Counted from the stretch's first letter, positions 23,510-63,321 are shown. The stretch is 64,000 nucleotides of DNA from Candidatus Doudnabacteria bacterium (GCA_963768175.1 CAVYGQ010000002.1:7270-71269); one strand, 5' to 3'. Numbers and translations are program-made. Notes: generated by a model from the sequence alone, not told the origin.

Positions 23510-23784
23510 TTATTTGTTTCGTTTAGTTGTTAAAGAGCAAGCCGTATCAGCCTATCAAAAAAGGCCACCCGCTTGCCACATCTACCCTTTCGGATAGAGA
23601 CCTTAGGAAAGGCTAAGACAAGACGGATGACCATCTTCGCTTTCCTAAGGATTTTGCCATGCCGATGATTTCTTATCGGTTTAGGCAACAATTAAATTGT
23701 ATTTAAACTATAGCAAATTTTGCCTTTTAAATAAAGTGTGTTTTTTGTCTTGGCTTTTCCTCGTATTTGGAGCATAATTTAAGA

Positions 23785-31491: not shown

Positions 31492-33252
31492 ATGGATACG
31501 CCAATAAAAACCAGCCCTGCTCCAGTCTCTTCTTTGGGTTTTGAGAAATTTTTGGTTGATAACGGATTTATCAAAGCCCAAATTGCCGCCCAGATTCAGG
31601 CGCTGCGGCAGAAAACCGGCCGAGATTTTGGGCAACTGTTAATAAGCCAAAAAGCTTTGGACGAAGAAGATTTAACCAAAGCCAAAGCGGCTTTTTTTAA
31701 TTTACCATACATTGATTTGCGGCAAGTACCGGTGCTGCCTCAGGTTTTGGCTTTAATCCCCATTGAATCCGTAAATTTTTATAACTTTGTGCCGTTTGAG
31801 CTTACCGGCAGGAGTTTGAAAGTAGCGATTACCGACCCGTCTAATTTATCCGCTTTGGAAGCCTTGGAATTTTTAGGCCAAAAGCAAAATTTGCAGGTTC
31901 AGTTGTATTTGGCTTCGGAAACCTCTGTAGGAGTAGTCATGGGGAAAAAGCAGAACTTAAAAAAAGTCGTGGGTGAAGCCTTAAAGGATATTCAAACCAA
32001 AGAGACCGCCTCACAAAAACCTGCCGAAGCCAGAAAGGAACAAAAGCCCAAGGTTATTGAAGAGGCGCCTATAATTAAGATCGTGGAGGTAATTTTAACC
32101 AATGCCATCGAGGCAAACGCCTCCGATATTCATATTGAGCCCTCGGAAAAAGATGTACGGGTACGCTATCGGATTGACGGTATCCTTCATACTTCGTTGA
32201 TGCTGCCCAAGAGCGTGCAGCCATCCATTGCCTCCAGAATCAAAATTTTGTCCAATTTAAAAATTGACGAATCCCGTCTGCCCCAAGACGGGCGGTTTCA
32301 TATGGAAGCCGGGAAAAAATCCGTGGATTTGCGCGTTTCCATTTTGCCTCTTATTTACGGCGAAAAAATTGTCATGCGTATTTTGGATAAAACCACCAAG
32401 GCCCCGACCTTAGACCAGCTTGGTGTGCGCGGCAGGGCTTTGTCCTGGATCAATGAAAATCTTAAAAAGAACCACGGCATTTTTTTAATCACCGGACCCA
32501 CCGGCTCAGGTAAGTCCACCACGCTGTATTCAGTTTTATCCATTCTTAATACCACCTCGGTTAATATTGTTACTCTGGAAGACCCGGTGGAATATTTTAT
32601 CGAAGGAGTCAACCAAAGCCAAATTAATCCGGACATTGGCCTGACTTTTGCTTCCGGCCTTAGGAGTGTTTTGCGCCAAGATCCTAATATAATTATGGTT
32701 GGTGAAATTCGTGACAAAGAAACGGCGGAATTGGCCGTGCAGGCGGCTTTAACAGGCCATCTGGTCTTTTCCACTCTGCATACTAACAACGCCATCGGTG
32801 CCATTCCCCGTTTAATAGATATGGGCATGGAACCTTTCCTGCTGGTGGCTTCAATAAATGTGGTTGCCGCCCAGCGCCTGATCAGGAAAATTTGCCCGGA
32901 TTGCCGCAAGGAGGTGGTTTTAACTAAAGCCGTGGAAGAAGAAATCAGGAAAGAAATTACCGGAGTCCCAGACGATTATTTTGAAGGTTTGGATAAAAGA
33001 AACTTGAAAATTTATAAGGGGGACGGTTGTGAGAAGTGCGGGCATACTGGCTACGTCGGTCGTATGGGGATATTTGAAGTTCTGCCTACCACCACGGAAA
33101 TTCAAGATTTAATTTTGGGGAGAAATACCGCCCACAGAATTTATGAAGAGGCGCAAAAAATCGGCATGGTTAGTTTAAAACAGGATGGCATTATTAAAGC
33201 TTTACGCGGCGATACCACCATGGAAGAGGTTATTAGGGTAACAACGGAGTAA
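31492..33252 (+). CDS. pilB: type IV pilus assembly ATPase PilB (GspE family)
   Basis: N-terminal GSPII_E_N, Walker A GPTGSGKSTTLYS, Asp and His boxes, C-terminal tetracysteine CPDC...CEKC. Confidence 0.9.
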   Translation: MDTPIKTSPAPVSSLGFEKFLVDNGFIKAQIAAQIQALRQKTGRDFGQLLISQKALDEEDLTKAKAAFFNLPYIDLRQVPVLPQVLALIPIESVNFYNFVPFELTGRSLKVAITDPSNLSALEALEFLGQKQNLQVQLYLASETSVGVVMGKKQNLKKVVGEALKDIQTKETASQKPAEARKEQKPKVIEEAPIIKIVEVILTNAIEANASDIHIEPSEKDVRVRYRIDGILHTSLMLPKSVQPSIASRIKILSNLKIDESRLPQDGRFHMEAGKKSVDLRVSILPLIYGEKIVMRILDKTTKAPTLDQLGVRGRALSWINENLKKNHGIFLITGPTGSGKSTTLYSVLSILNTTSVNIVTLEDPVEYFIEGVNQSQINPDIGLTFASGLRSVLRQDPNIIMVGEIRDKETAELAVQAALTGHLVFSTLHTNNAIGAIPRLIDMGMEPFLLVASINVVAAQRLIRKICPDCRKEVVLTKAVEEEIRKEITGVPDDYFEGLDKRNLKIYKGDGCEKCGHTGYVGRMGIFEVLPTTTEIQDLILGRNTAHRIYEEAQKIGMVSLKQDGIIKALRGDTTMEEVIRVTTE

Positions 33253-33345
33253 TGACAAAAATGACAAAAACGACGGAAATTAAAAAAATTACTGCATCAA
33301 TATTTTTGTCATTTTTATTATTTTTTTAATTTTTGTCATTTGCTT
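33251..33345. repeat. pil-cluster inverted-repeat element family C (arms ATGACAAAAATGACAAAAA / TTTTTGTCATTTTTATTAT), copy 1 of at least 5
   Basis: Related copies at 33790-33885, 36263-36360, 37485-37580 and 40525-40595 (partial). Each ends a few nt upstream of, or overlapping, the next start codon. Confidence 0.7.
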
Positions 33346-33347
33346 TT

Positions 33348-33773
33348 ATGGCTTATATTTTTAAACAAAAACTTAATTTAACCGATTTGGCTGGTTTAAC
33401 TATCCTTCCAAAAAGAATTTTAATTTATGAACCGGAAATCTACCTGGCCGCACTCTATGCCCATTATTTGCGCCAGCATAATTTTGACATAAGGAATTGT
33501 TTTAACTTGGATAAAGTCAATGGAATGATAATAAGTTTTCAGCCCCATCTTTTAATTTTTTGTACCGATGGGTTAAAGGCTCCTTTTAAAGCTCCTGGCT
33601 TAATTTTAGCCTTAAGCCGTAAATTTCCGAACCTGAGTTTTTTGACCATTGCGCGCGAATTGAGCCACCAAGGCACAAAGGACTTAATGGATGCCGGGGT
33701 TTTAGGCCATTTAAACCGCAGTTTAAGCCGGCCCCAGGATGTTGTGGAGGTAGTGAAGACGTTGTTGCAATAA
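33348..33773 (+). CDS. receiver (REC)-like single-domain protein, probably a degenerate response regulator
   Basis: KRILIYEPE...LLIFCTDG...FLTIARE pattern resembles the CheY-like fold without clear acid-pocket residues. ORF opens at 33333, inside a repeat element. Confidence 0.35.
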   Translation: MAYIFKQKLNLTDLAGLTILPKRILIYEPEIYLAALYAHYLRQHNFDIRNCFNLDKVNGMIISFQPHLLIFCTDGLKAPFKAPGLILALSRKFPNLSFLTIARELSHQGTKDLMDAGVLGHLNRSLSRPQDVVEVVKTLLQ

Positions 33774-33893
33774 TAAAATTTTTCGTTTTAGCATTAATTT
33801 TTTAATGACAAAAATTAAAAAAATAATAAAAATGACAGAAATATTACTGCAGTCAATTTTTGCTCAATTTTGTCATTTTTGTCAATAACCCTT

Positions 33894-34964
33894 ATGTATA
33901 AAGCAAGCGAACTTGAATTAAATAAATTACTATCCATAGTTTTGGAGCGAGACTCCTCCGATTTACATTTAATGGTCGGAGAGCCACCGATTATTCGTGT
34001 GGATACCCAACTTATAAGGTTAGATAATTATCAGGTTTTAAGCAACGACAATATTAGCGACCTGCTTAGTGTGCTGCTTACCCCGCAGCAGAAGGAAATG
34101 TTTGAGAAGGAGTTACAGATAGATTTTTCCTATTCTTTTAAAGACAACATCCGCTTTCGTGTTAACGCCTATAAACAAAAAGGGGTTTTAGGTATTGCCT
34201 TAAGAGTTATTCCTAACCACATAAAAACTATTGAAGAACTAAATCTGCCTTCGACTTTAAGAAAATTTATAGAAAGAAAACAGGGCTTGGTGTTAATGGT
34301 TGGCCCCACGGGGCATGGTAAATCCACCGCATTAGCGGCACTGATTAATGAAATAAATACTACCAGAGCCGAACATATTTTAACTATTGAAGATCCGATA
34401 GAATTTGTGTTTACGCCGAATAAGTCCATTATATCCCAAAGAGAATTATATTTGGATACCATAACCTTTGCCGGAGCCCTGCGCTCCGCGCTTCGGGAGG
34501 ACATCAATGTTGTGCTTCTTGGCGAGATGCGCGATTTGGATTCCATTTCAGCCACTTTGACGGTTGCCGAAACCGGGCACCTTGTGTTTGGGACTTTGCA
34601 CACTAACGACGCAGGCCAGAGCATTGACCGTATTGTTGACGTTTTTCCGGCCGCCCAGCAGCCACAAATCCGCAGCCAGCTTGCCTCGGTGCTCGTAGGG
34701 GTAGTGAGTTTGCGCCTGCTTCCCAAAGTCGGCGGCGGCCGAGTGCCGGCTTATGAAATTTTGATGGCCAACCACGCTGTCAGAAACGTCATTAGGGACA
34801 ACAAAATTTATGAGATTTCAAATATTATTCACACCAGCTTGGAAGAGGGAATGGTGCCACTCGATAAAACCTTGGCACTTTTAGTTAAGCAAGGGCAGGT
34901 GGAATTTGAAGTAGCACAGAATTTTGTTACAGATAATGAGTATTTCCTCTCGTTAATATCATAA
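33894..34964 (+). CDS. pilT: twitching-motility ATPase PilT
   Basis: SDLHL, Walker A GPTGHGKST, HTNDA motif. ORF opens at 33870 inside the repeat, so ATG 33894 (MYKASEL) is preferred. Confidence 0.85.
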   Translation: MYKASELELNKLLSIVLERDSSDLHLMVGEPPIIRVDTQLIRLDNYQVLSNDNISDLLSVLLTPQQKEMFEKELQIDFSYSFKDNIRFRVNAYKQKGVLGIALRVIPNHIKTIEELNLPSTLRKFIERKQGLVLMVGPTGHGKSTALAALINEINTTRAEHILTIEDPIEFVFTPNKSIISQRELYLDTITFAGALRSALREDINVVLLGEMRDLDSISATLTVAETGHLVFGTLHTNDAGQSIDRIVDVFPAAQQPQIRSQLASVLVGVVSLRLLPKVGGGRVPAYEILMANHAVRNVIRDNKIYEISNIIHTSLEEGMVPLDKTLALLVKQGQVEFEVAQNFVTDNEYFLSLIS

Positions 34965-35052
34965 CTGACCTGAATCTACGGATGGTACCCGAATGACCCG
35001 AAAGGGGCGCAATTCGGAACATTCGGATGCATTCGGGTATTAGGGTCGCGAC

Positions 35053-36258
35053 ATGAAATTCAATTACAAAGCCAAAAACAAAGAGGGCAGTATTCAAAGC
35101 GGGGTAGTGGTCGCGGTAGACCAAAACAAGGCGGAGACCTTGCTTGGTGAAAACGGTTTGGTAATTATTTCTTTGCAAAAAGAACAAAGCGACATTTTTG
35201 CCAGAGTCAATCCGTTTGGCAAATCAGTTAAGAACAAAGAGCTGGTCTTGTTTTCCCGTCAGTTGGCTACCCTTATCTCCGCGCGCGTCCCGATTATCCA
35301 GGCTTTAAGAATACTGCAGGAGCAAATTAACGGGAAATATTTGCTTAGCATTATTGCTGATTTAATTTCCTCGGTAGAAAACGGCGATAGTTTGAGCAAT
35401 GCTATGGCCAAATATCAAAACGTCTTTGGAAACGTTTATATAAGTTTGGTAATGTCCGGAGAGGTTTCCGGTTCCCTGGATAAATCTTTAGTCTATTTGG
35501 CCGATCAGTTGGAAAAAGACTACGAGCTTAAAGGTAAGGTCAAAAGTGCAATGACTTATCCGCTATTTGTCCTTTCGGCCTTGGTTCTTATTGGAATGCT
35601 AATGTTCAAGTTAGTCTTGCCTAATTTAACTACCGTGCTGGTGGAACAAGGCGGCAGTTTGCCGACGGTTTCCGTTTGGCTAATTGCCGCTACCAACTTT
35701 TTTAACAGATTTTGGTGGTTGGTTTTAATGGTTTTGGCCGGATTAATTTTAGGCTTCAGATATTATATTTCCACTTTAGGCGGCAGGAGAAACTGGGATA
35801 TCGTAAAAATTAAGTTTCCCATAATCGGCGGCATTTTTCAGAAAATTTATCTGGCGCGATTTGCCCGGAACCTGTCGACATTAGTAATCGGCGGTATCCC
35901 GATTATGAAAGCCCTGCAGATTGTGGCCGAAGTTATTAATAATACAATTTATCGCGAGATTATTTTGGAGACAGTAACTAAAATCCAGGGCGGTAAAAGC
36001 ATCAGCGAGGGGCTGGCCGGCCATCCCGAGTTTCCGACTATTGTGACCCAAATGGTCAGTGTGGGAGAGCAGACCGCCCAGCTAGACGACATTATGGCCA
36101 AATTGGCGAATTTTTACGAAAAAGAAGTTGACAGTAACGTTTCCACCTTGACCACTCTACTGGAGCCTATAGTTATGATAATCTTAGGTATTGGTGTGGG
36201 CATACTGGTTGCGGGTATCTTATTGCCTATTTATAATATGGCCAGCACCGCAGGGTAA
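35053..36258 (+). CDS. pilC: type IV pilus platform protein PilC (two T2SS-F domains)
   Basis: Duplicated GspF-like domains, three TM segments. Confidence 0.85.
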   Translation: MKFNYKAKNKEGSIQSGVVVAVDQNKAETLLGENGLVIISLQKEQSDIFARVNPFGKSVKNKELVLFSRQLATLISARVPIIQALRILQEQINGKYLLSIIADLISSVENGDSLSNAMAKYQNVFGNVYISLVMSGEVSGSLDKSLVYLADQLEKDYELKGKVKSAMTYPLFVLSALVLIGMLMFKLVLPNLTTVLVEQGGSLPTVSVWLIAATNFFNRFWWLVLMVLAGLILGFRYYISTLGGRRNWDIVKIKFPIIGGIFQKIYLARFARNLSTLVIGGIPIMKALQIVAEVINNTIYREIILETVTKIQGGKSISEGLAGHPEFPTIVTQMVSVGEQTAQLDDIMAKLANFYEKEVDSNVSTLTTLLEPIVMIILGIGVGILVAGILLPIYNMASTAG

Positions 36259-36539
36259 GTAGCAATGACAAAATTGACAAAAATTAAATAAATGACAAAA
36301 ATAATGTACCCAATAATTTTTTAATTTTTGTTCATTCTTGTCATTCTTGTCATTATCCCTTATGTGTATAACTCTCCTTGCCTATTAATAAAAAAATGGT
36401 ATAATATAATTAACTTAAATATTATCCTTTAGTTTCTAAAAAACGCCGTGACTTAAGTTGGAGGGGACAAAGAGCTTAAGCTGGTTTTTTCCTAGCTTAA
36501 AGTTCGGCGGGGAATTAAAGGGTTATTTTTAGAATAAGA

Positions 36540-37013
36540 TTGGGGGTGAAAACATTGAGAAACAAAAACAAAGCAGGGTTTACTTTAATTGAATTATTGG
36601 TCGTTATTGCCATTATCGGTCTTTTAGCTTCTGTGGTCTTATTGGCCTTAAATGGGGCTCGAGCCAAGGCCAGGGACGCCAAGAGGTTGGCCGATATGAG
36701 GCAAATGGCGTCAGCTATGGAGCTGTACTTTAATGATATTAGCGGTTACCCGACACAAGCAGCAGGAACTTTGGGAGTTACCCAGCTTGGATGGCCACCT
36801 ATTAATCCTAATTACATAGGGCAAATTCCTACTGCCCCCAGTCCGGCAGATGGTAATTGCGTTGTCGCAGGGCAGGGTTCCAACGCGTATTTCTGGGTTT
36901 CTACTCAGAGTGTTTCCTTGACGAATACCTACCTTATTACTTTCTGTTTGGGCGCGGCAACCGGTGGTTACTCTGGCGGCCCTCATACACTTAGTCCGTC
37001 CGGTATTCAATAG
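36540..37013 (+). CDS. pilA: major type IV pilin (prepilin with class III signal); likely start TTG 36555 (MRNKNKAG|FTLIELLVV)
   Basis: Leader ending in G, followed by FTLIELLVVIAIIGLLA with the conserved Glu at mature position +5. Confidence 0.8.
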   Translation: MGVKTLRNKNKAGFTLIELLVVIAIIGLLASVVLLALNGARAKARDAKRLADMRQMASAMELYFNDISGYPTQAAGTLGVTQLGWPPINPNYIGQIPTAPSPADGNCVVAGQGSNAYFWVSTQSVSLTNTYLITFCLGAATGGYSGGPHTLSPSGIQ

Positions 37014-37086
37014 TTTAGGTTTTTTACCTTGTCCCATCCCGCCACCCTTTGGGTGGCGGGATGGGATGGTATAGATTTAAGAAAAA

Positions 37087-37485
37087 GTGAATTTTCATTT
37101 TTCAAACAAAATTAAAATTTTATTAAGCAGCCTCATAGCGGCTGTTGTTTTATTATTGGCGGTTGTTGGAGGAGTAAATAACGGCAAAAAAATCGCTCAA
37201 GCAAAAATTCTTATCCAAACTTCCAAGAGCGCGGCCTCGGCCCTACAATATTTTTATCAGGATCAAAACCGCTACCCCACGGCCACGGAGTTTGAAAATC
37301 AAAACCTTATGTTAAGCTATTTCAGTAATTTCCCTTTACCCAATTATCCATCCTCGGCCTGCAGCCAGAGCTTTGTTTATAAAAGAGCGGATCCGGCGGC
37401 TTTTAGCTTAAGTTTTTGTTTGCCGGTTGCTTCCAGTGGTTATCAGGCGGGATGGAACAATATTAATGGCTCGATGGGGAAATGA
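37087..37485 (+). CDS. hypothetical membrane-anchored protein with C-terminal Cys pair (pilin-like fold possible)
   Basis: N-terminal TM without a GFTLIE motif. Cys pair ACSQ...FCLP. Confidence 0.3.
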   Translation: MNFHFSNKIKILLSSLIAAVVLLLAVVGGVNNGKKIAQAKILIQTSKSAASALQYFYQDQNRYPTATEFENQNLMLSYFSNFPLPNYPSSACSQSFVYKRADPAAFSLSFCLPVASSGYQAGWNNINGSMGK

Positions 37486-37563
37486 CAAAAAGGACAAAAA
37501 CGACGTAAATGACTAAAATGTGACTGCGGTTTATTTTTGTCATTTTTATTATTTATTTAATTT

Positions 37564-39561
37564 TTGTCATTACTTTTTATGTTCAACCTAGAAAAATTCC
37601 GCCTCCCTTACCGCGAAGACTTAACATTCAGTTGCTTGAGTTTTTTAGTTTTTATTGTTCCTTTGGCTTTTTTTTTGCTGACTAACGAGAATTACGAAAC
37701 CGCAAAGTTTGTCCTGTTTTTAATTTTAGCCGGCTCTAGCTTAGTGGCATTTTTAAAACGGCGGGAATTGAATGAAATTTCGGTAAAATTCCAGCAGCCG
37801 TTTTTTTATTTGCTCGCCGCGATGCTTTTTTGGGCTGTTTTGTCGGCCGTTTTCTCCAGTGATGTTTTATACAGCATCTTTGGTTTTTACTACCGTTTTA
37901 CCGACGGTTTGGTTTTTTATTTTTGCCTGGCGACATTTTTAATTTTATTGGTCAATGTTTTGGACAAAGGCCGGTTGGTGTTTTTGCTGCAAATTTTAGT
38001 TTTTGATGCTTTAATTGTGGCTATTTTAGGATGCCTGCAAAGCGTCGGCATCACCTATTATGGGGGGATAACTTCCAGCGGCTTAATGCTCGGGCCCAGT
38101 TTGTTGGGCAACCCGGATTTTAGCGCCATGTTTTTGGCGGCAGTATTGCCTTTTGCCCTGGTTTTTTTTAGCAGCGCCGGGAAATTTTCCGCCAAAGTTT
38201 ATTATGGTTTGTGCGTTTTTATTATTATTTTGGCAAGCCTGGCATTCGCCAGCAGGGGGGCGCTTTTGGCCATAGCCGTAAGTCTAACTTTGGCCTTGGC
38301 CGGATTTTTGATTTTTCATCTGCAAAAAAAATTTTTTTTCGGTTTGTTGGCGATTTTGCTAGTCGGGTTGGTATTGGGCGGGGGTTTTTTAAAAGCTGTC
38401 AGGCCCGGAGCAGTAAGCACCATTTACCAATCCGTAGACGCCAACACCGTTGCCAGATTAGCGGCGTGGCAGATTTCCCTGCAGGGAATTGGCCAGCATC
38501 CGTTGTTGGGAAGCGGACTGGGAACTTATGTTTTATTTTTTGAGCACAATCGTCCGCAAAGCATGGCTACGCTAGTGGGGGTTTTTGACGATCCCCACAA
38601 TTTATTTCTACGCATGGCGGTAACCGAAGGCATCCCTTTTGTTTTAATTTTTTTCGGATTGCTCGTAGCGGCCGGCACCAGCGCGGCTAAACAACTAAAG
38701 CAGGAAAAGGACCTGTTAACTTTAGGATTTTTGGTAAGCCTGGTTGCTTGGTGCGTCGGAGTAAGCTTTAACCCGGTTCCTATCCCTATGTTTATGCTTT
38801 TGGCGGTAATACTTTCCGGACTGCTTGTGGGGCATACCGAAAGCAAAAATTTAAAGTTAAACGCAAAAATAAAATGGGCGGTTTATATTTTTGCCGGAAT
38901 TTTTATAGTTTTCGGCATTAGTTTGGCGACTTCGGAATATGTTTTTGGCTTTGCCAAAAGAGATTATCTTAATCAGGATTACGGCCAGGCTTACAACTTA
39001 AGCGTTTTGGCGGAAAAAATTAATCCAACCAACCGTTTGTATGAAATTTATCGGATAGGCGCTGAAATCGGCTTGAATAAAGACCCCCAGGGAATTGTCA
39101 AAGACATCAACCGTTTTACTCTTACCCATTCAAGCTATACGGGCACCTTTGTTGAGGCCAGTAATATGTATAATTTGCTTTATTCTTCTACTGGCGAGAA
39201 AATTTATTTATGGTCCGCCATAACCGAAATGGATATGGCTTTAAAAATAGATAAATTTTACGCCGAAAGATACGGCCAGGAAGCCTTATATTATTATGAG
39301 CTTAATGATTTAAACGCATCCAAATCCGCGGTGGTAAAAAATTTAAGTTTGGAGGACGATAATTTTGCCCCTTGGATTTTGCTGGCAAAAATTTATCAGT
39401 TGGAAGGCAATAAAGCCGCGACTGTGCAGGCGCTGTCCCGAGCCTTTAAGCTTAGGCCGGACATCCCCCAGATTGGCTATTACCTCTATTTGGCCAAAAC
39501 CCAAGCCGATATAAAAACTGTGCCGCTTCGGATTGCGCCCATGCCTCCGCATTTGGAATAG
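37564..39561 (+). CDS. O-antigen ligase (Wzy_C)-like polytopic membrane protein with C-terminal TPR repeats; candidate pilin O-glycosylation enzyme (PglL/PilO-type)
   Basis: About 12 TM helices, a large periplasmic loop, and TPR-like C-terminus (...LAKIYQLEGNKAATVQALSRAFKL...). Located directly after the pilin gene. Confidence 0.55.
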   Translation: MSLLFMFNLEKFRLPYREDLTFSCLSFLVFIVPLAFFLLTNENYETAKFVLFLILAGSSLVAFLKRRELNEISVKFQQPFFYLLAAMLFWAVLSAVFSSDVLYSIFGFYYRFTDGLVFYFCLATFLILLVNVLDKGRLVFLLQILVFDALIVAILGCLQSVGITYYGGITSSGLMLGPSLLGNPDFSAMFLAAVLPFALVFFSSAGKFSAKVYYGLCVFIIILASLAFASRGALLAIAVSLTLALAGFLIFHLQKKFFFGLLAILLVGLVLGGGFLKAVRPGAVSTIYQSVDANTVARLAAWQISLQGIGQHPLLGSGLGTYVLFFEHNRPQSMATLVGVFDDPHNLFLRMAVTEGIPFVLIFFGLLVAAGTSAAKQLKQEKDLLTLGFLVSLVAWCVGVSFNPVPIPMFMLLAVILSGLLVGHTESKNLKLNAKIKWAVYIFAGIFIVFGISLATSEYVFGFAKRDYLNQDYGQAYNLSVLAEKINPTNRLYEIYRIGAEIGLNKDPQGIVKDINRFTLTHSSYTGTFVEASNMYNLLYSSTGEKIYLWSAITEMDMALKIDKFYAERYGQEALYYYELNDLNASKSAVVKNLSLEDDNFAPWILLAKIYQLEGNKAATVQALSRAFKLRPDIPQIGYYLYLAKTQADIKTVPLRIAPMPPHLE

Positions 39562-39716
39562 GTTAAGATCTGCGTCCTTGAGGACAGTCCTCTGGCGGAA
39601 GTTAGTAATTTTGAAAACAATTGATAAATATCGGATTATTATTTATTAAACAACATCAAATTAGGCCAGAGGACTGTCCTCAACGATTAACCGCTCAAGT
39701 CCTATAAATAAAATTT

Positions 39717-40520
39717 ATGGAATTATTTTTTATCATCTTGACATTTTGTTTCGGCGCCGTAATCGGCAGCTTTCTTAATGTGGTAATTTTACGTTTGCCC
39801 GAGAACCAGACTATAACCGGCCGTTCCCATTGCCCCAAATGTCGGCACACGCTGGGAGCCTTGGATTTAGTTCCTCTTTTTAGCTTTATTTTTTTAAAAG
39901 GCCGCTGCCGGTTCTGTAAAACAAAGATTTCTCCCCGTTATTTTATTTTGGAATCAGTTACCGGTTTGCTGTTCGCCGCGGCTTTTTACTATTTAAACCC
40001 CGTGACTATTGCCTCCGCCGTCCTGCTGTTAAAATATTGGCTGATTTTGGCGGCCTTGGTGGCGGTATTTGTGATTGATTTGGAGCACTTCTTAATTTTG
40101 GACGCGGTTTTGGTTCCGGCCTCCGGCGCAATAGTTTTTTTAAGCATTATTTTGGATGTTTGCTTAAAAGTAAACATATTTTCCCCGCATAGTAATTTTA
40201 TTTCCGGTCTGTTGGCAGCCGCCGTTTTATGGTTATTGTTTTTTTTGGTCTGGTTCTTTTCCAAAGGCCTGTGGCTGGGTTTTGGCGATGTCAAACTGGC
40301 CATTTTGCTGGGCTTAGCTTTGGGTTGGCCATTGATTTTAGTCGGTTTTATGCTGGCGGTAATTTTGGGCGGGGCAGTTTCGGCTTTTTTGCTGGGCTTT
40401 AAACGCAAGACTTTAAAAACTCAAATTCCTTTTGGAACTTTTTTGGCTTTGGGTACGGTTTTTGCTTTGTTTTATGGGGATAAATTGCTTAGTTGGTATT
40501 TGGCAATTTTAGGCTTTTAA
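39717..40520 (+). CDS. pilD: prepilin peptidase (A24 family)
   Basis: N-terminal zinc-binding CPKC...CRFC, the two catalytic Asp regions, and a polytopic membrane domain. Confidence 0.85.
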   Translation: MELFFIILTFCFGAVIGSFLNVVILRLPENQTITGRSHCPKCRHTLGALDLVPLFSFIFLKGRCRFCKTKISPRYFILESVTGLLFAAAFYYLNPVTIASAVLLLKYWLILAALVAVFVIDLEHFLILDAVLVPASGAIVFLSIILDVCLKVNIFSPHSNFISGLLAAAVLWLLFFLVWFFSKGLWLGFGDVKLAILLGLALGWPLILVGFMLAVILGGAVSAFLLGFKRKTLKTQIPFGTFLALGTVFALFYGDKLLSWYLAILGF

Positions 40521-40648
40521 AGGTATAATAAATAGGTAATGAACAAAAATGACAAAAATTAAAAAAATGAGCAAAAATTAAAAAATCCGGTATTTTCGCC
40601 GTTTTTGTGATTAAAACATCCCTTTTGAAATAAAATTTATCTCCAATA

Positions 40649-42224: not shown

Positions 42225-42602
42225 ATGGAAAAGAAGTATCTGCAACTTAACGATATTGACTGTTATAAAATCGCATTTAATTTATCTAATTATGTTTGGA
42301 ATCTAGTTATTACTTGGGATTATTTTCCAAAAGATACTGTTGGCAAGCAATTTGTTAAAGCTGTTGATTCCATATCCGCAAATATTGCCGAAGGATTCGG
42401 GAGATTTGGGAAAAAAGATAAAATACATTTTTATTATTATAGTTTTGGATCATTAAAAGAATCATTGGATTGGAATGAGAAAGCGAAAATTAGGAAGTTA
42501 CTTATTCAAGAACAGTACCTTTATATTTTTACTGAGCTTAATAAACTTCCTAAATCTATACACCAGTTAATCCAGTATACCAATCTTAAACTGAAACAAT
42601 GA
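42225..42602 (+). CDS. four-helix-bundle protein (TIGR02436, formerly named 23S rRNA intervening-sequence protein)
   Basis: Sequence pattern ...AFNLSNYVWNL...KAVDSISANIAEGFGRF.... Confidence 0.65.
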   Translation: MEKKYLQLNDIDCYKIAFNLSNYVWNLVITWDYFPKDTVGKQFVKAVDSISANIAEGFGRFGKKDKIHFYYYSFGSLKESLDWNEKAKIRKLLIQEQYLYIFTELNKLPKSIHQLIQYTNLKLKQ

Positions 42603-45705: not shown

Positions 45706-45745
45706 AAAAAACCCCGCCCCGTCGGATGACGGGGCGGGGTAAAAT
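45706..45745. terminator. bidirectional terminator hairpin CCCCGCCCCGTC-GGAT-GACGGGGCGGGG between convergent genes
   Basis: Perfect 12-bp stem with A-run and T-run flanks. Same stem and loop as the terminator at 2063. Confidence 0.65.
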
Positions 45746-50113: not shown

Positions 50114-51694
50114 AGAAAAAATTAAAGCGGGCCGGCGGCGACATCGTAAGGCGATGCGCGCGCGGGTCCGCTAACTTTTAATATTTAACCTTCAACTTCC
50201 AATACCTGTGGTTATCTTTGGGGAATACATTTTTTGAAAAACTAAAAGGCCGCTTATTTAAGGTTGAAATTTTTTATTAACCCTAAACCAGCCACTTCTT
50301 GACAAAGATATTAAAATCATCTAAAATAGTTAAGCAATAAGTTAATAAGAAACGACTATTATGAAAAAAGCTTTATTATTAAGGAAAACGCGGTTTATGT
50401 AAAACGGCCAATTTAAATTGTGCCTGACATAGCCGCGAAAGCGGTTTTTTTGTTGAAAAGCGACACCAACACACGAATACACGCGAATGACACGAATCAA
50501 AGACCTTTAAAATTATCGCCGTATACTTACTGCTCTGCGGATCTCAGCGTTCCAATTTTTTTGGGAACACAGGCTCGTAGAACCGATTTAGAGCAGTAGC
50601 TATATGATGGTAATTGTATTCCTCTGAACAGGCCAAGGGCCTGTGCCACAGCGACGATTATCGTCAGGTTCTTTAACAACTAAATAAAATAAGCCACCAC
50701 GTATAGAATCAGGCGTGGATGGCTTATGGGTAGAAACATTGTAAGAACTAACACACCAATTAACACAGATTGAAAACAAATGAACACGGATTCGTGTTAA
50801 TCCGTAATTATCGGTGTCAATTAGTGTGCAGAAAAGAACATTGTATCCTTACGCAGTTTGCATCAAACAGTTGTAAGATTTAGGATTAAAGATTTAAGTG
50901 GCTGCAGATTGCAGTTACTTACAATTTTAATCTTTCAACTCTCAACTAATTTGGTGGTCACAAATTGCTAGTTAATACTTGTCCCCGCGAAAGCGGGGAT
51001 CAATAGAATATAAAATATATAAGGGTATACGGTGGATGCCTAGGTAATATGAGCCGATGAAGGACGTGATAGCCTGCGAAAAGCCTCGGGGAGCTGGCAA
51101 TAAGCTTTGATCCGGGGATGTCCGAATGGGGAAACCCATGCACTGGAAGAGTGCATGCCTATATGCCGTGGGGTATGTAGTGCGGGAACCGTGCGAAGTG
51201 AAACATCTCAGTAGCACGTGGAAAATAAATCAATTTACGTCGCAAGACGTAAGAGAGATTCCGTCAGTAGTGGCGAGCGAAAGCGGAAGCATATATCAGA
51301 TAAATCGGAGAATCGGATGAATCGGAAAATCAGATCAAACATTATTGAAAAATGGTGTTTTGATCCGACTTCCGACTTCCGACATTCCGATTATTCTGGT
51401 ATTAGCCCAAACCTAATTAGTGTTTTCTAGATCCCCGCTTTCGCGGGGACAGGATTAAAGATTACAGTCGTTGCTAGTTAGGCGTAATAAGTTAGAGTTA
51501 TTGTCCCGCTGTAACGGGACAGGGAATTATGTTTGTTGTTTAGCAGAACACGCCTGGAACGGCGGACCAAAGAGGGTGATAGTCCCGTATCGCGAAAAAC
51601 CATGCAATTTCCTAACTTTTTCTTGAGTACAACCAGACACGAGAAATCTGGTTGGAAATCAGGTCGACTAAGATCTAAGGCTAAATACTCATAT

Positions 51695-51735
<41 letters not shown>

Positions 51736-52376
51736 CACCCCGGAAGGGGGATGAAATAGTATCTGAAACCGTATACTTACAAGGAGTGGAAGACCTTATT
51801 CTTTTTTCCGCAAGGTTAAGGGAATGGTTAACCGCGTGCCTATTGAAGAATGATCCAACGAGTTAATCTTTAGCAGCTTGATTAAGTCTTACCAAAGACG
51901 AAATCGCAGTGAAAGCGAGGATGAATAGTCCGTATTAGGATTTTGATCGGTCGATGACTTAGGTTATCGACCGCGACAATTTCCTAAATGTTGCTAGAGT
52001 TAGACCCGAAACCCGGTGAGCTACGCATGGCCAGGATGAACGTTATGTAAAAGTAACGGGAGGTCCGGACGCACTATTGCTGCAAAAATAGGCGATGAGC
52101 TGTGCGTAGGGGAGAAATTCCAATCGAACCGGGTGATAGCTGGTTCTCCTCGAAATAGCTTTAGGGCTAGCGTCGAGAGTTCCCTTGAGAGGTAGAGCAC
52201 TGAATGGAAACCTGCTGCGCAAGCGGTAGGCTCCAACCAAACTCCGAATTCTCAAGGTCAAGATCTCGGCAGTCAGTCCGTGAGGTCTAAGCTTCACGCG
52301 ACAAATGGAGAAGAATCCACACCACCGTCTAAGGCCCCCAAATCCTAGCTATAGTGCAAAGGATGTGGGGTTGCTC

Positions 52377-52413
<37 letters not shown>

Positions 52414-52511
52414 TAAAGAAAGCGTAACAGCTCACTGGTCAAGCGATCCCGCGCCGACAATATATAGGGGCTAAGCTAGGTGCCGAAGACGTGGATCAGC
52501 GCGTAGCGCTG

Positions 52512-52649
52512 GAAATCCGAAGCACGAAATCCGAAATACGAAACAATATTTAAATTCAAAAAAATAAATCCGAAATGTCGGGTTTAGATATTTGAATTTA
52601 TGATTTAGAATTTGTTTCGAATTTCGATATTCGAATTTCGAATTTGCAG
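52512..52649 (+). other. intervening sequence (IVS) in 23S helix 45: AT-rich hairpin built from TCCGAAAT/ATTTCGAA repeats
   Basis: Inserted between ...GATCAGCGCGTAGCGCTG and TGCTATGCGCTGG (E. coli position about 1170). Long imperfect inverted repeat GGAAATCCGAAGCACGAAATCCGAAATACGAAAC ... GTTTCGAATTTCGATATTCGAATTTCGAATTTGC. Confidence 0.5.
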
Positions 52650-53729
52650 TGCTATGCGCTGGTGGTAGAGGAGTGTTGTTTGCAGGTTGAAGCGGTATGC
52701 GTAAGCGGCCGTGGACAGCAAACAAGCAAGAATGTTGGAATAAGTAATATATATAGAGGTGAGAATCCTCTTCGCCGAATATCCAAGGGTTCCAGGGCAA
52801 CGATCGTCGTCCCTGGGTTAGTCGATCCTAAGAGCGGGCCCCAAGGGGTCCGTCCGATGGAAAATATGGTTGATATTCCATAACCGCCGTAACATTATCC
52901 AAGACGGGACACATCATGGTAGCGTTAGCGTTATCTGACTATTAGCGTTGTTGTACTTGTAGGATGGTTTTTGAGGCAAATCCCAAAGACCTATGCAATT
53001 ATTTCTTACCTCGCAAGAGATGGAAGTAAACGTTGTAATTTCGAGAGTACAAAGAAACCTGGCAACGGGAATTAGCGCAAACCAAGGTGTCAAGAAAAGC
53101 GTCGTGGTTAGGTGCTAGGGTGATCGTACCGTAAACCGACACAGGTGGATGGGGAGAGAATCCCAAGGCGTCCGGAACAATGTTCGTTAAGGAACTCGGC
53201 AAAAAAGCAGGTGTACCTTAGGTATATACCTTGACCTTTTATATGCTGGGTAATGAGAAATTGGAGAAGATAATTCTCCATCAGGAAAGTGGATACCAAA
53301 CAGCCGCACTTATCATGCAGCTGGGAAGGGCTTGACCGATAATCAAGTTTCGGCCTCTGGCCGAGTCCACCTAACAAAGGAGGGAATTCCAGTGTGTGCA
53401 TCCATGGCACAGCTCCGTGCCGCTACTTCATCCTAAAGAGGGTGAAAGCAACTCCGGTCATCGGGGCTGCCTCTTTCCATAGTAGCTGTACACACTGCCC
53501 TCCTTTGGATAATCATCTAATTTTGATTATCCTCATTACCCAGCATATTAAAAGGCCCGCAGCAAAAGACCTCTCCCGACTGTTTACCAAAAACTTAGGT
53601 CCGTGCTAAAGCGCAAGCTGATGTATACGGGCTGATGCCTGGCCAGTGTCAGAAGGTTAAATCCCTTGGCGCAAGCCGAGGGGCCAAGCCCTGATGAACG
53701 CCGGCAGTAACTATAACTGTCCTATGGTA

Positions 53730-54137
53730 ACTGGAATTTATTCTTTTTGGGCGTCATTCTGAGGAGCGAAGCGACGAAGAATCTCAAAATGAGATCCTTC
53801 ACTTCGTTCAGGATGACGCCGATAAGAAGTTTGGCTGCCATAGTAAAATGTAACTATATCGGAAAAAACCTCTCTGAGAAAATTCCGAGGGAAGACTTTT
53901 GTGTCATCGCGAGTGCAGCCGAAGCGATCTTTAAAAGATTGCTTCGTCGGATGCACTCCTCGCAATGACACAGAGGAACCCGTAGAGACTACACGTTGCA
54001 CATCATTTTGGTGATGAAGATATAGTCCGGACTGCATAGCGATATGCAGAATGTGACAGAAATGATCACATTTGTCATTCTGAATTTATTTCAGAATCTA
54101 GATTCCCGCTTTCGCGGGAATGACAATAACAAATCAA
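53730..54137 (+). other. ORF-less group I intron in 23S at the E. coli 1923-equivalent site (between GGTCCTATGGTA and GCGAAATTCC)
   Basis: Exon junction matches CGGTCCTAAGGTA^GCGAAATTCCTTGTCGGG. Conserved R-like GTAGAGACTACACG and S-like GAAGATATAGTCCGG core elements. Peripheral stems carry family B palindromic repeats. Confidence 0.6.
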
Positions 54138-54692
54138 GCGAAATTCCTTGTCGCGTAAGTTGCGACCCGCACGAATGGCATAACGAGTAGAGGACTGTCT
54201 TAACGAACATTCCGATGAACTTACAGTGGCGGTAAAGATGCCGTCTACCCGCAGCAAGACGGAAAGACCCTATGAAGCTTTACTATAGCGTGTCATTGAA
54301 TTAATGCTTTTATTGTTTAGCCTAGGTGGGAGCCTTTGAAGCTTGGGCGCCAGCTCAAGTGGAGGCGACAGGTGAAATACCACTCTGTAAAAATATTAAT
54401 TCTAACCAATGTTTAACCTGCATTGGGACAGTGGCTCGTGGGTAGTTTAACTGGGGCGGTTGCCTCCTAAATGGTAACGGAGGCGTTTATTAAGGTAGGC
54501 TAGGTATGGATGGAAATCATACCGGTAGTGCAAACGCATAAGCCTGCTTGACTGCAAGGGCGGCGACCCGCGCAGGCACGAAAGTGGAAGTTAGTGATCC
54601 GATGCGTTCGAGTGGAAGACGCAAAGCCCAACGGATAAAAGTTACTCTAGGGATAACAGGCTGATCCTCTCCAAGAGTCCACATCGACGAGA

Positions 54693-54731
<39 letters not shown>

Positions 54732-54735
54732 GTGA

Positions 54736-54772
<37 letters not shown>

Positions 54773-55195
54773 TGGTACGCGAGCTGGGTTCAAAACGTCG
54801 TGAGACAGTTTGGTCCTTATCTGCTGTGGGTGTACGAAACTTGAGTAGTCGCTTCGCTAGTACGAGAGGACCGCGAAGCATAGACCTCTGGTGTACCCGT
54901 TGTCCTGTCAAGGGCATGGCGGGGTAGCTAGGTCTAGTTAAGATAAACGCTGAATGCATATAAGCGTGAAGCTGTCTACAAAACTAGGTTTCGTTTTTAG
55001 TCGCAAGACTAAAGAAAGGTTCGGGGAAGACTACCCCGTACAACTATTAGGTTTTAGATTAAAGTTGAAAGACTTAAGTAGCAATACTTAGATCCGTAAT
55101 CTTAAATCTTTAATCTGATATATAGGTTGCAGGTGTAAGCACAGTAATGTGTTCAGCCGAGCAATACTAATCAACCGAAAATTTTAAATTCTATT

Positions 55196-57423: not shown

Positions 57424-57514
57424 CCGACCCGAATGACCCGAATTAGAATCCGAATAACCCGAAATGGGCCAATTCGGATAATTCGGGTGGAATTCGGGTA
57501 TTAGGGTCGCTACT

Positions 57515-63201: not shown

Positions 63202-63321
63202 ATTATTAACACGGATCTACTGATAGAGCACGGATCAACGGATATCTACGGATGCCATTGGCCAAGTCTATCGGTAGACATCAGTAGATCCGAATTTAAT
63301 CCGTATATCCGTGTTAATTAT

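What the first reader, a model, noticed from the sequence alone, without database searches (positions are those of the whole stretch)
33251..40595. Five copies of a 95-nt inverted-repeat element placed between type IV pilus genes, each ending at or overlapping the next start codon
Seen in sequence: the element has arms TGACAAAAATGACAAAAA/TTTTTGTCATTTTTATTAT. It precedes the REC-like gene, pilT and the Wzy-like gene, follows pilC, and a partial copy precedes the pseudopilin block. The ORF track even extends pilT and the REC-like ORF into the repeat. Intercistronic hairpins in pilus operons commonly set differential mRNA stability, for instance excess pilin relative to machinery. Here a repeat family appears to have been recruited for that role, or to act as a shared regulator-binding site.
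Basis: partly seen in the sequence, partly recalled or inferred. Interest (0 to 1): 0.6.

Follow-up and report, generated by a model that had tools for sequence, protein, structure and literature searches.

The report
Dispersed palindromic repeat filling operon gaps
The five repeats between the pilus genes are real, but they belong to a widespread family of hairpin-forming spacer repeats found in front of unrelated housekeeping genes in related candidate-phyla bacteria, so they are not a pilus-specific control element.

Summary
There are four full copies and one decayed copy of a ~90-nt imperfect palindrome at 33251-40612. Each arm is four tandem 9-nt units (TGACAAAAA-like), and all five share a 19-mer (0.04 expected by chance). 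The pil-specific reading does not hold. The same element occurs in about 17 Patescibacteria MAGs, mostly labelled Doudnabacteria. There it sits directly upstream of gyrA, rplS, ftsW, ftsX, mutM and other unrelated genes. Only 1 of 80 related pilT loci carries it. In the closest relatives the same gaps hold other hairpin arrays or are empty (TAA-2/3 nt-ATG). Copies occur in both internal orientations. They show no compensatory covariation and no sense/antisense folding difference, and they keep a conserved mismatch. They fill the whole stop-to-start gap, with the ATG 8-9 nt after the last unit in 19 of 23 copies. The window also holds other hairpin repeat families, one upstream of both pilC and glmS. 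The best reading is a REP/ERIC/Correia-like dispersed, co-transcribed palindromic repeat. Its hairpin puts the stop and start codons at the stem base, so its likely effect is generic (translational coupling, mRNA structure). It is a new variant of a known kind, of moderate interest.

The parts
33251..33347 (+). E1, full copy between pilB (stop TAA 33250-33252) and the REC-like gene (ATG 33348). Left arm is TGACAAAAA TGACAAAAA CGACGGAAA TTAAAAAAA, apex is TTACTGCATCAAT, right arm is TTTTTGTCA TTTTTATTA TTTTTTTAA TTTTTGTCA, and a 9-nt tail TTTGCTTTT follows. The core 19-mer is on the minus strand.
33804..33893 (+). E2, full copy (4 + 3 units) between the REC-like gene and pilT (ATG 33894). It has a CTGCAG apex. 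The core 19-mer is on the plus strand, so its interior is inverted relative to E1. Its left arm is 91% complementary to the right arm of E1.
   Evidence: (I2)
36264..36355 (+). E3, full copy 6 nt after the pilC stop. It is followed by the conserved TTGTGTATAAC motif and the pilin promoter, not by a gene start.
37481..37578 (+). E4, full copy between the pilin-like gene and the Wzy_C/TPR gene (ATG 37579). The stop TGA of the pilin-like gene (37483-37485) is the TGA of the element's first unit. Orientation is as in E1.
40539..40612 (+). E5, decayed copy. It has a five-unit left arm (40539-40586) and a remnant right arm TTTTCGCCG TTTTTGTGA TT (40593-40612). It starts 10 nt after the TATAAT of the pseudopilin promoter, so it lies at the 5' end of that leader.
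   Evidence: (z=0.04)
34966..35048 (+). A different hairpin repeat (units nCCGAATnn / ATTCGGnn) that fills the pilT|pilC gap. MFE is -32.6 kcal/mol. One nt is free after the stop and 4 nt are free before the ATG.
57425..57510 (+). Second copy of the CCGAAT hairpin repeat, upstream of a glmS-like gene (SIS + GATase domains). It shares an identical 19-mer with 35031-35049.
36378..36405 (+). Pilin promoter-like site, TTGCCT-16-TGgTATAAT. It is conserved in relatives, downstream of E3.
40500..40529 (+). Pseudopilin promoter-like site, TTGGCA-18-TATAAT. The GGTATAAT opens the pilD|pseudopilin gap in all relatives examined.
37032..37066 (+). G+C-rich perfect 16-bp hairpin after the major pilin gene. 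A G+C-rich hairpin occupies this gap in every relative. It is not part of the repeat family.

Best explanation
The five sequences are copies of a dispersed, imperfectly palindromic intergenic repeat of about 90-100 bp. It is carried by a clade of Patescibacteria whose MAGs are mostly labelled Candidatus Doudnabacteria.

Anatomy:
- Each arm is a tandem array of about four 9-nt units: TGACAAAAA, TTAAAAAAA, CGACGGAAA, TAATAAAAA and TGAGCAAAA, with their complements.
- The apex is usually ACTGCAGT-like.
- The outermost units form perfect terminal inverted repeats (AATGACAAAAA ... TTTTTGTCATT).
- An 8-9-nt A/T tail leads into the ATG of the next gene.

Shown here:
- The family is not pil-specific.
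- It is gained and lost between close relatives.
- It occurs in two internal orientations.
- It sits in transcribed stop-to-start gaps of co-directional genes, or directly after a -10 box.
- This genome also carries several other repeat families with the same design.

Inferred:
- Copies spread by an unknown copy-and-paste or ectopic recombination process into junctions that were originally only 2-20 nt long.
- They are co-transcribed with the operon.
- The long A-U-rich hairpin puts the upstream stop codon and the downstream start codon at the base of one stem.
- A ribosome terminating at the stop must melt the outer ~11-13 bp. That frees the ~20 nt in front of the next ATG.
- So the insertion preserves, or even enforces, translational coupling in a genome that mostly lacks Shine-Dalgarno sites.
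- It may also act as a generic barrier or processing structure in the mRNA.

Any effect on pilus gene expression is therefore generic. It is not a dedicated pil regulatory code.

On the confidence value: that this is a dispersed repeat not specific to pil I hold at about 0.9. The coupling mechanism I hold at about 0.3-0.35. The single figure given is a blend of the two.
For: Family and spread:
- An exact 19-mer scan of GTDB genomes gave 117 loci. About 35 of them carry the full element, in about 17 Patescibacteria MAGs, with at least 7 copies each in AMAZON01 and bin-7426.
- Four AMAZON01 copies at unrelated loci are 97-100% identical over ~91 nt.
- The downstream genes are unrelated housekeeping genes.

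Placement:
- The upstream stop lies within 14 nt of, or inside, the first unit in 27 of 29 copies.
- The ATG lies 8-9 nt after the last unit in 19 of 23 copies.
- Several copies start 6-10 nt after a -10 box.

Gain and loss:
- Only L124 of 80 pilT loci carries the element.
- Empty sites exist. L129 reads GAGTAAACTATGGCTTAT where the window reads GAGTAA[95 nt]ATGGCTTAT.
- Gaps are 2-21 nt in L122 and L129, and 4-48 nt in more distant relatives.

No sign of a sequence-independent selected helix:
- RNAalifold finds 0 consensus pairs.
- 78.8% of cells are paired, against 82.4% in shuffles.
- There is a conserved TTAA/TGTC mismatch.
- Sense and antisense MFE are equal (P=0.82).

Same design elsewhere:
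- The window and its relatives hold other hairpin-array families that span the whole gap, leaving 0-7 nt free after the stop and 0-9 nt free before the ATG.
- The CCGAAT family precedes both pilC and glmS.
- The B family is dispersed over several MAGs.

Other:
- Only about 5 of 51 ORFs in the window have an SD-like motif.
Against: - No target-site duplication is visible at the filled versus empty sites.
- No transposase or parent element was identified, and no copies were found in viral contigs. The mode of spread is therefore unknown.
- The repeat appears to extend to the ATG itself: copies at unrelated genes share a TTAAC(A/T)TATG tail. That is odd for a classical MITE.
- The window copies are only 87-88% identical to each other and are no closer to each other than to foreign copies. 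Yet five sit within 7.3 kb and none in the other 56 kb. This local clustering is not explained.
- The A-U stems are weak (-15 to -23 kcal/mol).
- Relatives without any hairpin show that the structure is dispensable.
- The coupling mechanism is inference only. No transcript or ribosome data were available.
Confidence: 0.55

Rival explanations
1. The hairpins are intercistronic mRNA stability or processing elements recruited specifically to set the stoichiometry of pilus components, for example as RNase III sites or 3'-exonuclease barriers.
For: - All five copies in the 64-kb window lie in the pil cluster.
- Every full copy folds better than shuffles (z -2.3 to -3.5; mean -4.3 over 34 copies).
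- L124 and L090 keep a copy in the pilB|REC gap.
Against: - 79 of 80 related pilT loci lack the element.
- The closest relatives have different sequences or no gap at all.
- The same element precedes unrelated housekeeping genes.
- There is no covariation and no strand bias in folding.
- The one gap where differential stability is classically expected, after the major pilin gene, holds an unrelated G+C-rich hairpin instead.
Confidence: 0.12
2. The copies are an adaptive ribosome relay. The A-rich left arm, with an AUG in every unit (AAAAAUGACA), loads ribosomes or lets them re-initiate at a TAAUG junction. A mini-ORF (MTKIKKMTK...) is translated through the hairpin, and its termination near the gene's ATG hands the ribosome on.
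For: - The frame that carries the unit ATGs is the only open frame of the left arm.
- TAA|TGACA junctions create TAATG overlaps.
- 7 of 27 mini-ORFs end within 5 nt of the gene ATG, including E2.
- The genome is largely SD-less.
Against: - Mini-ORF length ranges from 5 to 36 aa.
- Most mini-ORFs stop in the left arm or at the apex, 45-70 nt before the ATG.
- The peptide is not conserved.
- Both internal orientations occur.
Confidence: 0.08
3. The copies act at the DNA level as arrays of 9-bp sites (TGACA-N4) for a regulator, a nucleoid protein or sigma region 4. They would work as operators, or as promoters built on the -35-like TTGACA hexamers.
For: - The units are conserved in sequence across MAGs.
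- There is a conserved asymmetry rather than perfect pairing.
- Promoter-like matches TTGACA-17-AAAAAT are found in E3, and on the minus strand of E2.
- E5 overlaps the +1 region of a promoter.
Against: - The genes downstream of the copies form no coherent regulon.
- A 9-bp phasing does not put sites on one helical face.
- The -10-like parts are poor (AAAAAT), and other copies have no such match.
- Syntenic gaps in relatives hold arrays of quite different units.
- No DNA-binding domain was found in the adjacent REC-like protein.
Confidence: 0.07
4. The hairpin arrays are not mobile. They arise and turn over in place through slippage of short units and arm-to-arm gene conversion. The copies look alike because of convergence or ectopic conversion.
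For: - Arms are periodic at 7-9 nt in many unrelated gap hairpins.
- Unit number varies between copies, from 2 to 5 per arm.
- The cores in the pilT|pilC gap are related: CCGAAT, GCGAA and TACGAA.
Against: - Copies at four unrelated loci of one genome are 97-100% identical.
- The same ~90-nt sequence occurs in about 17 MAGs. Both facts require copying between loci.
Confidence: 0.1
5. The copies are intrinsic terminators or attenuators that divide the pil cluster into separate transcription units.
For: Each copy is a hairpin followed by a T-rich tail (TTTGCTTTT, TTACTTTTT).
Against: - The terminator scan reports none at the five copies.
- The genome's clear terminators, at convergent gene ends, are short G+C-rich stems (45711-45740, about 10340, about 18570).
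- Copies sit directly in front of essential genes inside operons in other MAGs.
Confidence: 0.04

Closest known systems
ERIC / IRU elements of enterobacteria and vibrios (features recalled from established literature)
   Same: - Both are imperfect palindromes of about 100-130 bp.
- Both lie in transcribed intergenic regions, often inside operons.
- Both are found in either orientation.
- Both differ in presence or absence between related species.
- Both are co-transcribed hairpins with generic effects on mRNA.
   Different: - There is no sequence relationship.
- The arms here are tandem arrays of 9-nt units.
- The copies here fill the whole stop-to-start gap, with a fixed 8-9-nt distance to the ATG.
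- The host is a Patescibacteria clade.
Correia (NEMIS/CREE) elements of Neisseria (features recalled from established literature)
   Same: - Both are dispersed, MITE-like and of similar size.
- Both have terminal inverted repeats.
- Both are inserted next to genes, including pilus-related loci.
- Both are co-transcribed and hairpin-forming.
- Some copies of each create promoter-like hexamers.
   Different: - No TA target-site duplication is seen here.
- No IHF site was identified here.
- The stem here is A-U-rich and built from repeated units.
- RNase III cleavage was not tested.
REP / BIME elements with RAYT transposases (features recalled from established literature)
   Same: - Both are extragenic palindromic repeats.
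- Both have mosaic combinations of sub-motifs.
- Both are found within operons, where REPs stabilise upstream mRNA segments.
- Both occur as several families per genome.
   Different: - REPs are 20-40 nt with a conserved GTAG/CTAC tetranucleotide, which is absent here.
- No RAYT gene was found or could be looked for.
- This element is about 90 nt with a single apex.
Rickettsia palindromic elements (RPE) (features recalled from established literature)
   Same: - Both are dispersed palindromic repeats in a reduced genome.
- There may be an in-frame coding insertion here too. An arm-like 33-45 nt inside the kbl-like gene gives an 11-aa extra loop.
   Different: RPEs are mainly known for their in-frame insertions. 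This family is almost entirely intergenic and abuts start codons.
Translational coupling by structure unmasking, as in the phage MS2 coat-replicase pair and some E. coli operons (recalled from established literature)
   Same: The proposed working principle is the same: a terminating upstream ribosome opens a stem that hides the region in front of the next start codon.
   Different: - Here the stem is a dispersed repeat.
- No SD is sequestered, because the genome is largely SD-less.
- The mechanism is inferred from geometry only.

Membership tests
MITE (miniature inverted-repeat transposable element) | Terminal inverted repeats | tested here: met
   The ends AATGACAAAAA ... TTTTTGTCATT are conserved in the 34-copy alignment.
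MITE (miniature inverted-repeat transposable element) | Target-site duplication flanking each copy | tested here: not met
   Comparing filled with empty sites (window GAGTAA[95 nt]ATGGCT against L129 GAGTAAACTATGGCT and L122 GAATAAATATGTCC) shows no duplicated flank. The ATG in the first unit confounds any 3-nt reading.
MITE (miniature inverted-repeat transposable element) | Many near-identical dispersed copies in one genome, with presence/absence differences between relatives | tested here: met
   Four loci in AMAZON01 are 97-100% identical. At least 7 copies occur in each of two MAGs. The element is absent from 79 of 80 related pilT loci.
MITE (miniature inverted-repeat transposable element) | Autonomous parent element or transposase with matching ends | not testable with these tools
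   Only 8-kb blocks around the matches were available, and the source contig is not on record. There are no full copies in IMG/VR contigs.
REP/BIME | A 20-40-nt palindrome with a conserved GTAG/CTAC tetranucleotide at its 5' end | tested here: not met
   The element is about 90 nt, and its consensus has no GTAG/CTAC at either end.
REP/BIME | An associated RAYT (IS200/IS605-like Y1) gene flanked by REPs | not tested
   The ORFs in the window were not all scanned, and whole genomes were not available.
Intrinsic (Rho-independent) terminator | A short G+C-rich stem followed by a U tract | tested here: not met
   The scan reports no terminator-like site inside any of the five copies. The stems are about 20% G+C.
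Any curated Rfam RNA family | A score at or above the family's gathering threshold | tested here: not met
   No hit reaches gathering score in the region. At E<=10 there is only a meaningless plant miRNA model over E3 (22 bits against a threshold of 107).
Structured cis-regulatory RNA (conserved helix) | Base pairs kept through compensatory changes | tested here: not met
   RNAalifold finds 0 pairs. Pairing (78.8%) and the covariation score (0.057) are both below every one of 500 shuffles. Two positions are unpaired in 29-31 of 34 copies. There is no sense/antisense difference.
TIGR (tandem interspaced guide RNA) array | Tandem array of units with box C / box D motifs and spacer pairs, next to a tas (Nop-domain) gene | tested here: not met
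   The defining features are taken from bioRxiv 10.64898/2026.09.09.750476. Here there are single dispersed hairpins between pil genes, no box C/D pattern, and A-rich repeated units rather than variable spacers. A tas gene was not looked for.
Integron attC site | R''/R' core sites (RYYYAAC ... GTTRRRY) at the ends of an imperfect palindrome between mobile cassettes | tested here: not met
   The ends are AATGACA ... TGTCATT. The flanking genes are a syntenic pil operon, not cassettes.

The most novel reading that the evidence does not exclude
A clade of Patescibacteria that mostly lacks Shine-Dalgarno sites uses a whole class of fast-evolving 'stop-to-start bridging' hairpin cassettes. Their arms are built from tandem 7-9-nt units, they come in many sequence families, and they are copied between operon junctions. 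The ribosome terminating on one gene melts the stem base and exposes the next start codon, so the cassettes would be a general device for translational coupling. The TGACAAAAA family in the pil cluster would be one example of this undescribed device.
Probability: 0.15. Interest if true: 0.7.

Novelty: new variant of a known kind. Interest (0 to 1): 0.45.

Why it matters
Dispersed palindromic repeats (REP, ERIC, Correia, RUP, RPE) are well studied in cultured bacteria. I found no description of them for the Candidate Phyla Radiation in three full-text searches.

This family and its sister families are unusual in four ways:
- Their arms are tandem arrays of short units.
- They keep a conserved mismatch.
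- They occur in two internal orientations.
- They occupy the stop-to-start junction precisely, with the ATG one unit length away.

For annotation, they explain ORF starts that are wrongly extended from the TTG in TTGTCA. They are also a ready marker for this clade.

For biology, they offer a testable handle on how internal cistrons are translated in SD-poor, ultra-compact genomes, and on how selfish DNA is tolerated inside essential operons.

For the pilus locus itself the message is negative. The repeats should not be read as a pil regulatory code.

Tried and rejected
- Rfam, at gathering score and at E<=10: nothing relevant.
- Source contig look-up with PilC and a window-end protein: not on record, so no genome-wide census of the source genome was possible.
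- Viral contigs: 31 chance 19-mer matches and no full element.
- Ungapped palindrome scan of the window: too strict for these mismatched arrays. Replaced by folding each gap.
- CTGCAG apex as a signature of a superfamily. It is the palindromic hexamer most often found at the centre of inverted repeats (8 of 117). However, 7 of those 8 are A-family copies and the eighth is an A-like variant (L119), so it marks the family, not the superfamily.
- TIGR arrays, integron attC sites, DNA uptake sequences and DnaA or PhoB boxes were considered and rejected. The units are almost never found singly (12 of 13 lie in the copies), the defining motifs are absent, and the period is 9 bp.
- Mini-ORF in the left arm: not conserved.
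- Leaderless or canonical promoter in the right arm: no consistent -10 at the right distance (reading).
- Rapid turnover 'faster than neutral': cannot be claimed. Coding DNA of the relatives is only 75-87% identical, so neutral sites may be saturated.


Full report
**1. Observation**

The region 33251-40612 contains five members of one repeat family.
- A 19-mer, TGACAAAAATTAAAWAAAT, is present exactly once in each copy. It is on the minus strand in E1 and E4 and on the plus strand in E2, E3 and E5. It occurs nowhere else in the window: 5 matches against 0.04 expected.
- 12 of the 13 exact TGACAAAAA 9-mers in the window lie in the copies.
- E1-E4 are full palindromes with arms of about 39 nt at 74-77% complementarity. 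As RNA they fold better than shuffles (z -2.3 to -3.5, MFE -18 to -23 kcal/mol).
- E5 keeps a five-unit left arm and a decayed right arm. It does not fold significantly (z 0.04).

- pilB: T2SSE + MshEN
- pilT: T2SSE
- pilC: T2SSF
- pilin and pseudopilins: N_methyl
- Wzy_C/TPR protein
- prepilin peptidase

The 141-aa 'REC-like' protein has no Pfam hit. Its L124 orthologue gives only a sub-threshold receiver-domain match.

The title claim that each copy ends at or overlaps the next start codon needs correcting.
- The TTG-started ORFs at 33333, 33870 and 37564 arise from the TTG of TTGTCA.
- Homologues align from residue 1 of the ATG-started proteins.
- The ATGs at 33348, 33894 and 37579 lie exactly 9 nt after the last TGTCA.
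- E3 is followed by the pilin promoter, and E5 follows the pseudopilin promoter.

**2. Anatomy**

Each arm is a tandem array of about four 9-nt units.
- Left-arm units are TGACAAAAA, TTAAAAAAA, CGACGGAAA, TAATAAAAA, TGAGCAAAA and TGAACAAAA. The right arm carries their complements.
- The apex is usually ACTGCAGT-like.
- The outermost units form perfect terminal inverted repeats, AATGACAAAAA...TTTTTGTCATT.
- An 8-9-nt A/T tail precedes the ATG.
- The 9-nt periodicity of the arms is significant.

The two arms are not simple complements. The second unit is TTAA on one arm and faces TGTC on the other. The CGACGGAAA unit occurs in only one arm. E2's left arm is the reverse complement of E1's right arm (91%, I2). 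The element is therefore asymmetric, and its interior occurs in two orientations relative to the downstream gene.

**3. The family elsewhere**

- A profile built from the window copies recognises the full element in about 35 of these loci.
- The host MAGs are labelled Candidatus Doudnabacteria, 'Patescibacteria group', or 'uncultured Candidatus Saccharibacteria' in third-party assemblies. That last label is doubtful, because one such MAG (L090) has a pil operon with 82% PilT identity to the window.
- AMAZON01 and bin-7426 each have at least 7 copies.
- The remaining loci are chance 19-mer matches in A+T-rich genomes.
- There are no full copies among IMG/VR viral contigs.

The context is stereotyped.
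- In 27 of 29 copies with an upstream co-directional ORF, the stop codon lies within 14 nt of, or inside, the first unit. It is often TAA|TGACA.
- The downstream ATG lies 8-9 nt after the last unit in 19 of 23 copies (with L079 corrected by eye).
- A few copies begin 6-10 nt after a -10 box, as E5 does.

The genes directly downstream are unrelated to pili. They are an S41 peptidase, ribosomal protein L19, GyrA, a GDPD phosphodiesterase, EamA, FtsX, a methyltransferase, YqeY, an ABC-2 permease and FtsW/RodA. MutM and a HIT protein were identified by their N-termini.

Four AMAZON01 copies, at ftsX, gyrA, EamA and rplS, are 97-100% identical over about 91 nt. Their identity runs through the tail to the ATG. 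The window copies are 87-88% identical to each other and are equally similar to foreign copies.

**4. pil loci of relatives**

A metagenome scan with PilT returned 80 loci, with PilT identity from 94% down to 46%. The pil gene order is conserved in the 14 loci aligned (L090 and L118-L130, PilT identity 63-94%).
- Only L124 carries the element, in the pilB|REC gap. This was shown with the profile and by looking for clusters of the 8-mer (899 kb searched).
- L090 also has a short copy in the pilB|REC gap.
- L124's copy is the inverted form of E1.
- In L118 (94% PilT identity) the pilB|REC gap holds an inverted array of TTGACCTAA-like units. Its REC|pilT gap holds GTAAGT/ACTTAC units.
- L119-L121 carry other arrays again, with cores CAAAT, TACAAAT, TACGAA, GCAGAT and ACTTACCA.
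- L122 and L129 have essentially no gap. L122 reads GAATAAATATGTCC and L129 reads GAGTAAACTATGGCTTAT, where the window has GAGTAA[95 nt]ATGGCTTAT.
- The more distant relatives L125-L130 have gaps of 4-48 nt.

The hairpins are therefore dispensable and lineage-specific. Tight junctions are probably the ancestral state. No target-site duplication is visible.

By contrast, the pilin promoter and leader are 88-92% identical among L119-L121, while the hairpin gaps cannot be aligned. Coding DNA is only 75-87% identical, so I do not claim turnover faster than neutral.

**5. Is a specific RNA helix under selection?**

Four tests on an alignment of 34 copies (A1) say no.
- RNAalifold predicts no consensus pairs.
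- Counting the expected unit-to-unit pairing gives 78.8% paired cells, against 82.4% when partners are shuffled among copies. The covariation score is also below all 500 shuffles.
- Columns 20-102 and 22-99 are unpaired in 31 and 29 of 34 copies. This is a conserved mismatch, as expected for one asymmetric sequence present in two orientations.
- Sense and antisense RNA fold equally well (mean difference 0.12 kcal/mol, 19 against 15, P=0.82).

Hairpin potential is real (mean z -4.3). It is a property of the repeat sequence. It is not evidence for a sequence-independent selected structure.

**6. The wider setting in this genome**

Folding every intergenic gap of the window shows many other strongly structured gaps.
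- The pilT|pilC gap is filled by a CCGAAT-unit hairpin (-32.6 kcal/mol). A second copy sits upstream of a glmS-like gene at 57425-57510, with an identical 19-mer.
- A G+C-rich family, GGCGTCATCC...GAATGACGCC, has four copies.
- ACGGAT-unit hairpins lie at about 8596-8700 and at 63202-63321.
- The TTAGGTTAATTAG family seen in L118 also occurs in AMAZON01 and bin-7426.

Across 19 hairpin gaps of the window and its relatives, one hairpin spans the whole gap. Usually 0-7 nt are free after the stop and 0-9 nt are free before the ATG. The arms are often periodic at 7-9 nt.

The window's convergent gene ends carry ordinary short G+C-rich terminators. The A-U-rich arrays are therefore not this genome's terminator type. 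Only about 5 of 51 ORFs have an SD-like motif. The major pilin gene is a clear exception (GGGGGTGA).

**7. Most likely mechanism**

Shown: this is a dispersed palindromic repeat family, one of several of the same design. It is copied between transcribed operon junctions, gained and lost among close relatives, and not tied to pilus genes.

Inferred:
- The copies are co-transcribed.
- The stem places the upstream stop codon at its 5' base and the ATG 8-9 nt from its 3' base. In the MFE of E1 and E4 the stop codon and the tail are themselves paired.
- From general knowledge, a ribosome shields roughly 12-15 nt downstream of the A site. A terminating ribosome would therefore open the outer perfect unit and free about 20 nt in front of the ATG.
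- The insertion would thus keep, or enforce, translational coupling in junctions that were originally 2-20 nt long.
- This would explain why only whole-gap hairpins with this geometry are seen. It works either as a function or simply as the filter that lets such insertions survive.
- Generic effects on mRNA decay or processing, as known for REP, ERIC and Correia elements, are possible but untested.

What I cannot explain is why five copies sit within 7.3 kb of this pil cluster and none in the other 56 kb.

**8. Rivals**

- A pil-specific stability code is contradicted by sections 3-5.
- A relay through a mini-ORF (MTKIKKMTK...) is not supported. Its length varies from 5 to 36 aa, and only 7 of 27 end within 5 nt of the ATG.
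- A DNA operator or promoter array is unlikely. The downstream genes are incoherent, the phasing is 9 bp, the -10 matches are poor, and relatives carry different units.
- In-place generation by slippage may explain the unit architecture. It cannot explain 97-100% identical copies at unrelated loci.
- A terminator role is contradicted.

**9. Comparison with known systems**

The element works most like ERIC/IRU and Correia elements, and like REP/BIME in its mosaic build and operon-internal position.

As a MITE it meets the tests for terminal inverted repeats, copy number and presence/absence polymorphism. It fails the test for a target-site duplication, and no parent element could be sought.

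It fails the defining features of REP (GTAG), intrinsic terminators, Rfam families, TIGR arrays and attC sites.

I therefore file it as a new variant of the known kind 'dispersed intergenic palindromic repeat', not as a member of any named family. Three literature searches found no description of such repeats in the Candidate Phyla Radiation.

**10. Limits**

- There are no transcript data.
- The source genome could not be retrieved.
- Taxon labels are those of the deposited MAGs.

Noticed in passing
window 63435-63494 (inside the kbl-like gene that starts at 63322): A 45-nt stretch, AATGATCAAAAATGACAAAGACGACGGAAATGGCAAAAATAAG, resembles the element's left arm (nhmmer E=0.007) and includes an exact CGACGGAAA. 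It encodes an 11-aa insertion (NDKDDGNGKNK) relative to solved 2-amino-3-ketobutyrate CoA ligases. It may be an in-frame insertion of a half element, as seen with Rickettsia RPEs.
   Followed up: partly
window 34966-35048 and 57425-57510: A second hairpin repeat family (CCGAAT units, identical 19-mer ATTCGGGTATTAGGGTCGC) fills the pilT|pilC gap and the gap upstream of a glmS-like gene. The ATG follows 4-5 nt after the stem. L124 has the same family in its pilT|pilC gap.
   Followed up: partly
window 3983-4070, 59484-59548, 59926-60013, and 53750-53820 (minus strand): A G+C-rich palindromic repeat family, GGCGTCATCC...GAATGACGCC, has four copies (0.11 expected for the 10-mer). One copy lies inside the extra sequence of the 23S rRNA gene.
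   Followed up: no
window 8596-8700 and 63202-63321: Two hairpins are built from ACGGAT/ATCCGT units. The second has 52-nt arms, starts right after a stop codon and ends immediately before the ATG of the kbl-like gene.
   Followed up: no
L118 9330-9497 and 9925-10000; L119-L121 pilB|REC, REC|pilT and pilT|pilC gaps: The syntenic gaps in close relatives hold inverted arrays of quite different 7-9-nt units (TTGACCTAA, GTAAGT, TACGAA, GCAGAT, CAAAT, ACTTACCA x4). The architecture is the same but the sequences are unrelated. The cores in the pilT|pilC gap (CCGAAT, GCGAA, TACGAA) look as if they might be related by concerted change.
   Followed up: partly
window 36361-36554 and the same gap in L119-L123 and L090: The major pilin gene has its own conserved promoter (TGnTATAAT) and an upstream motif TTGTGTATAAC. 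It also has a long leader and a strong SD (GATTGGGGGTGAAAA), in a genome where about 90% of ORFs have no SD-like motif.
   Followed up: partly
window 37032-37066: A perfect 16-bp G+C-rich hairpin (-45 kcal/mol for the gap, z -12) follows the major pilin gene. Every relative has a G+C-rich hairpin in this gap. It is a likely attenuator or terminator, or a stabiliser of the pilin mRNA.
   Followed up: no
window 39575-39686: Inverted repeat with 22-29-nt arms separated by 54-68 nt, lying between the Wzy_C/TPR gene and the prepilin peptidase gene. L120 has a different strong hairpin at the same place.
   Followed up: no
window 51009-55190: The 23S rRNA match spans 4182 nt for a 2925-nt model, so there is about 1.26 kb of inserted sequence, as is common in Candidate Phyla Radiation genomes. 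The tRNA-Ile and tRNA-Ala genes lie 23 kb away on the other strand.
   Followed up: no
window 42225-42602: A gene for a '23S rRNA-intervening sequence protein' family member (PF05635, E=2e-19) is inserted among the pseudopilin genes.
   Followed up: no
window 23561-23687 (minus strand): Match to the LOOT RNA family (RF03000, 56.6 bits against a gathering score of 46.4).
   Followed up: no
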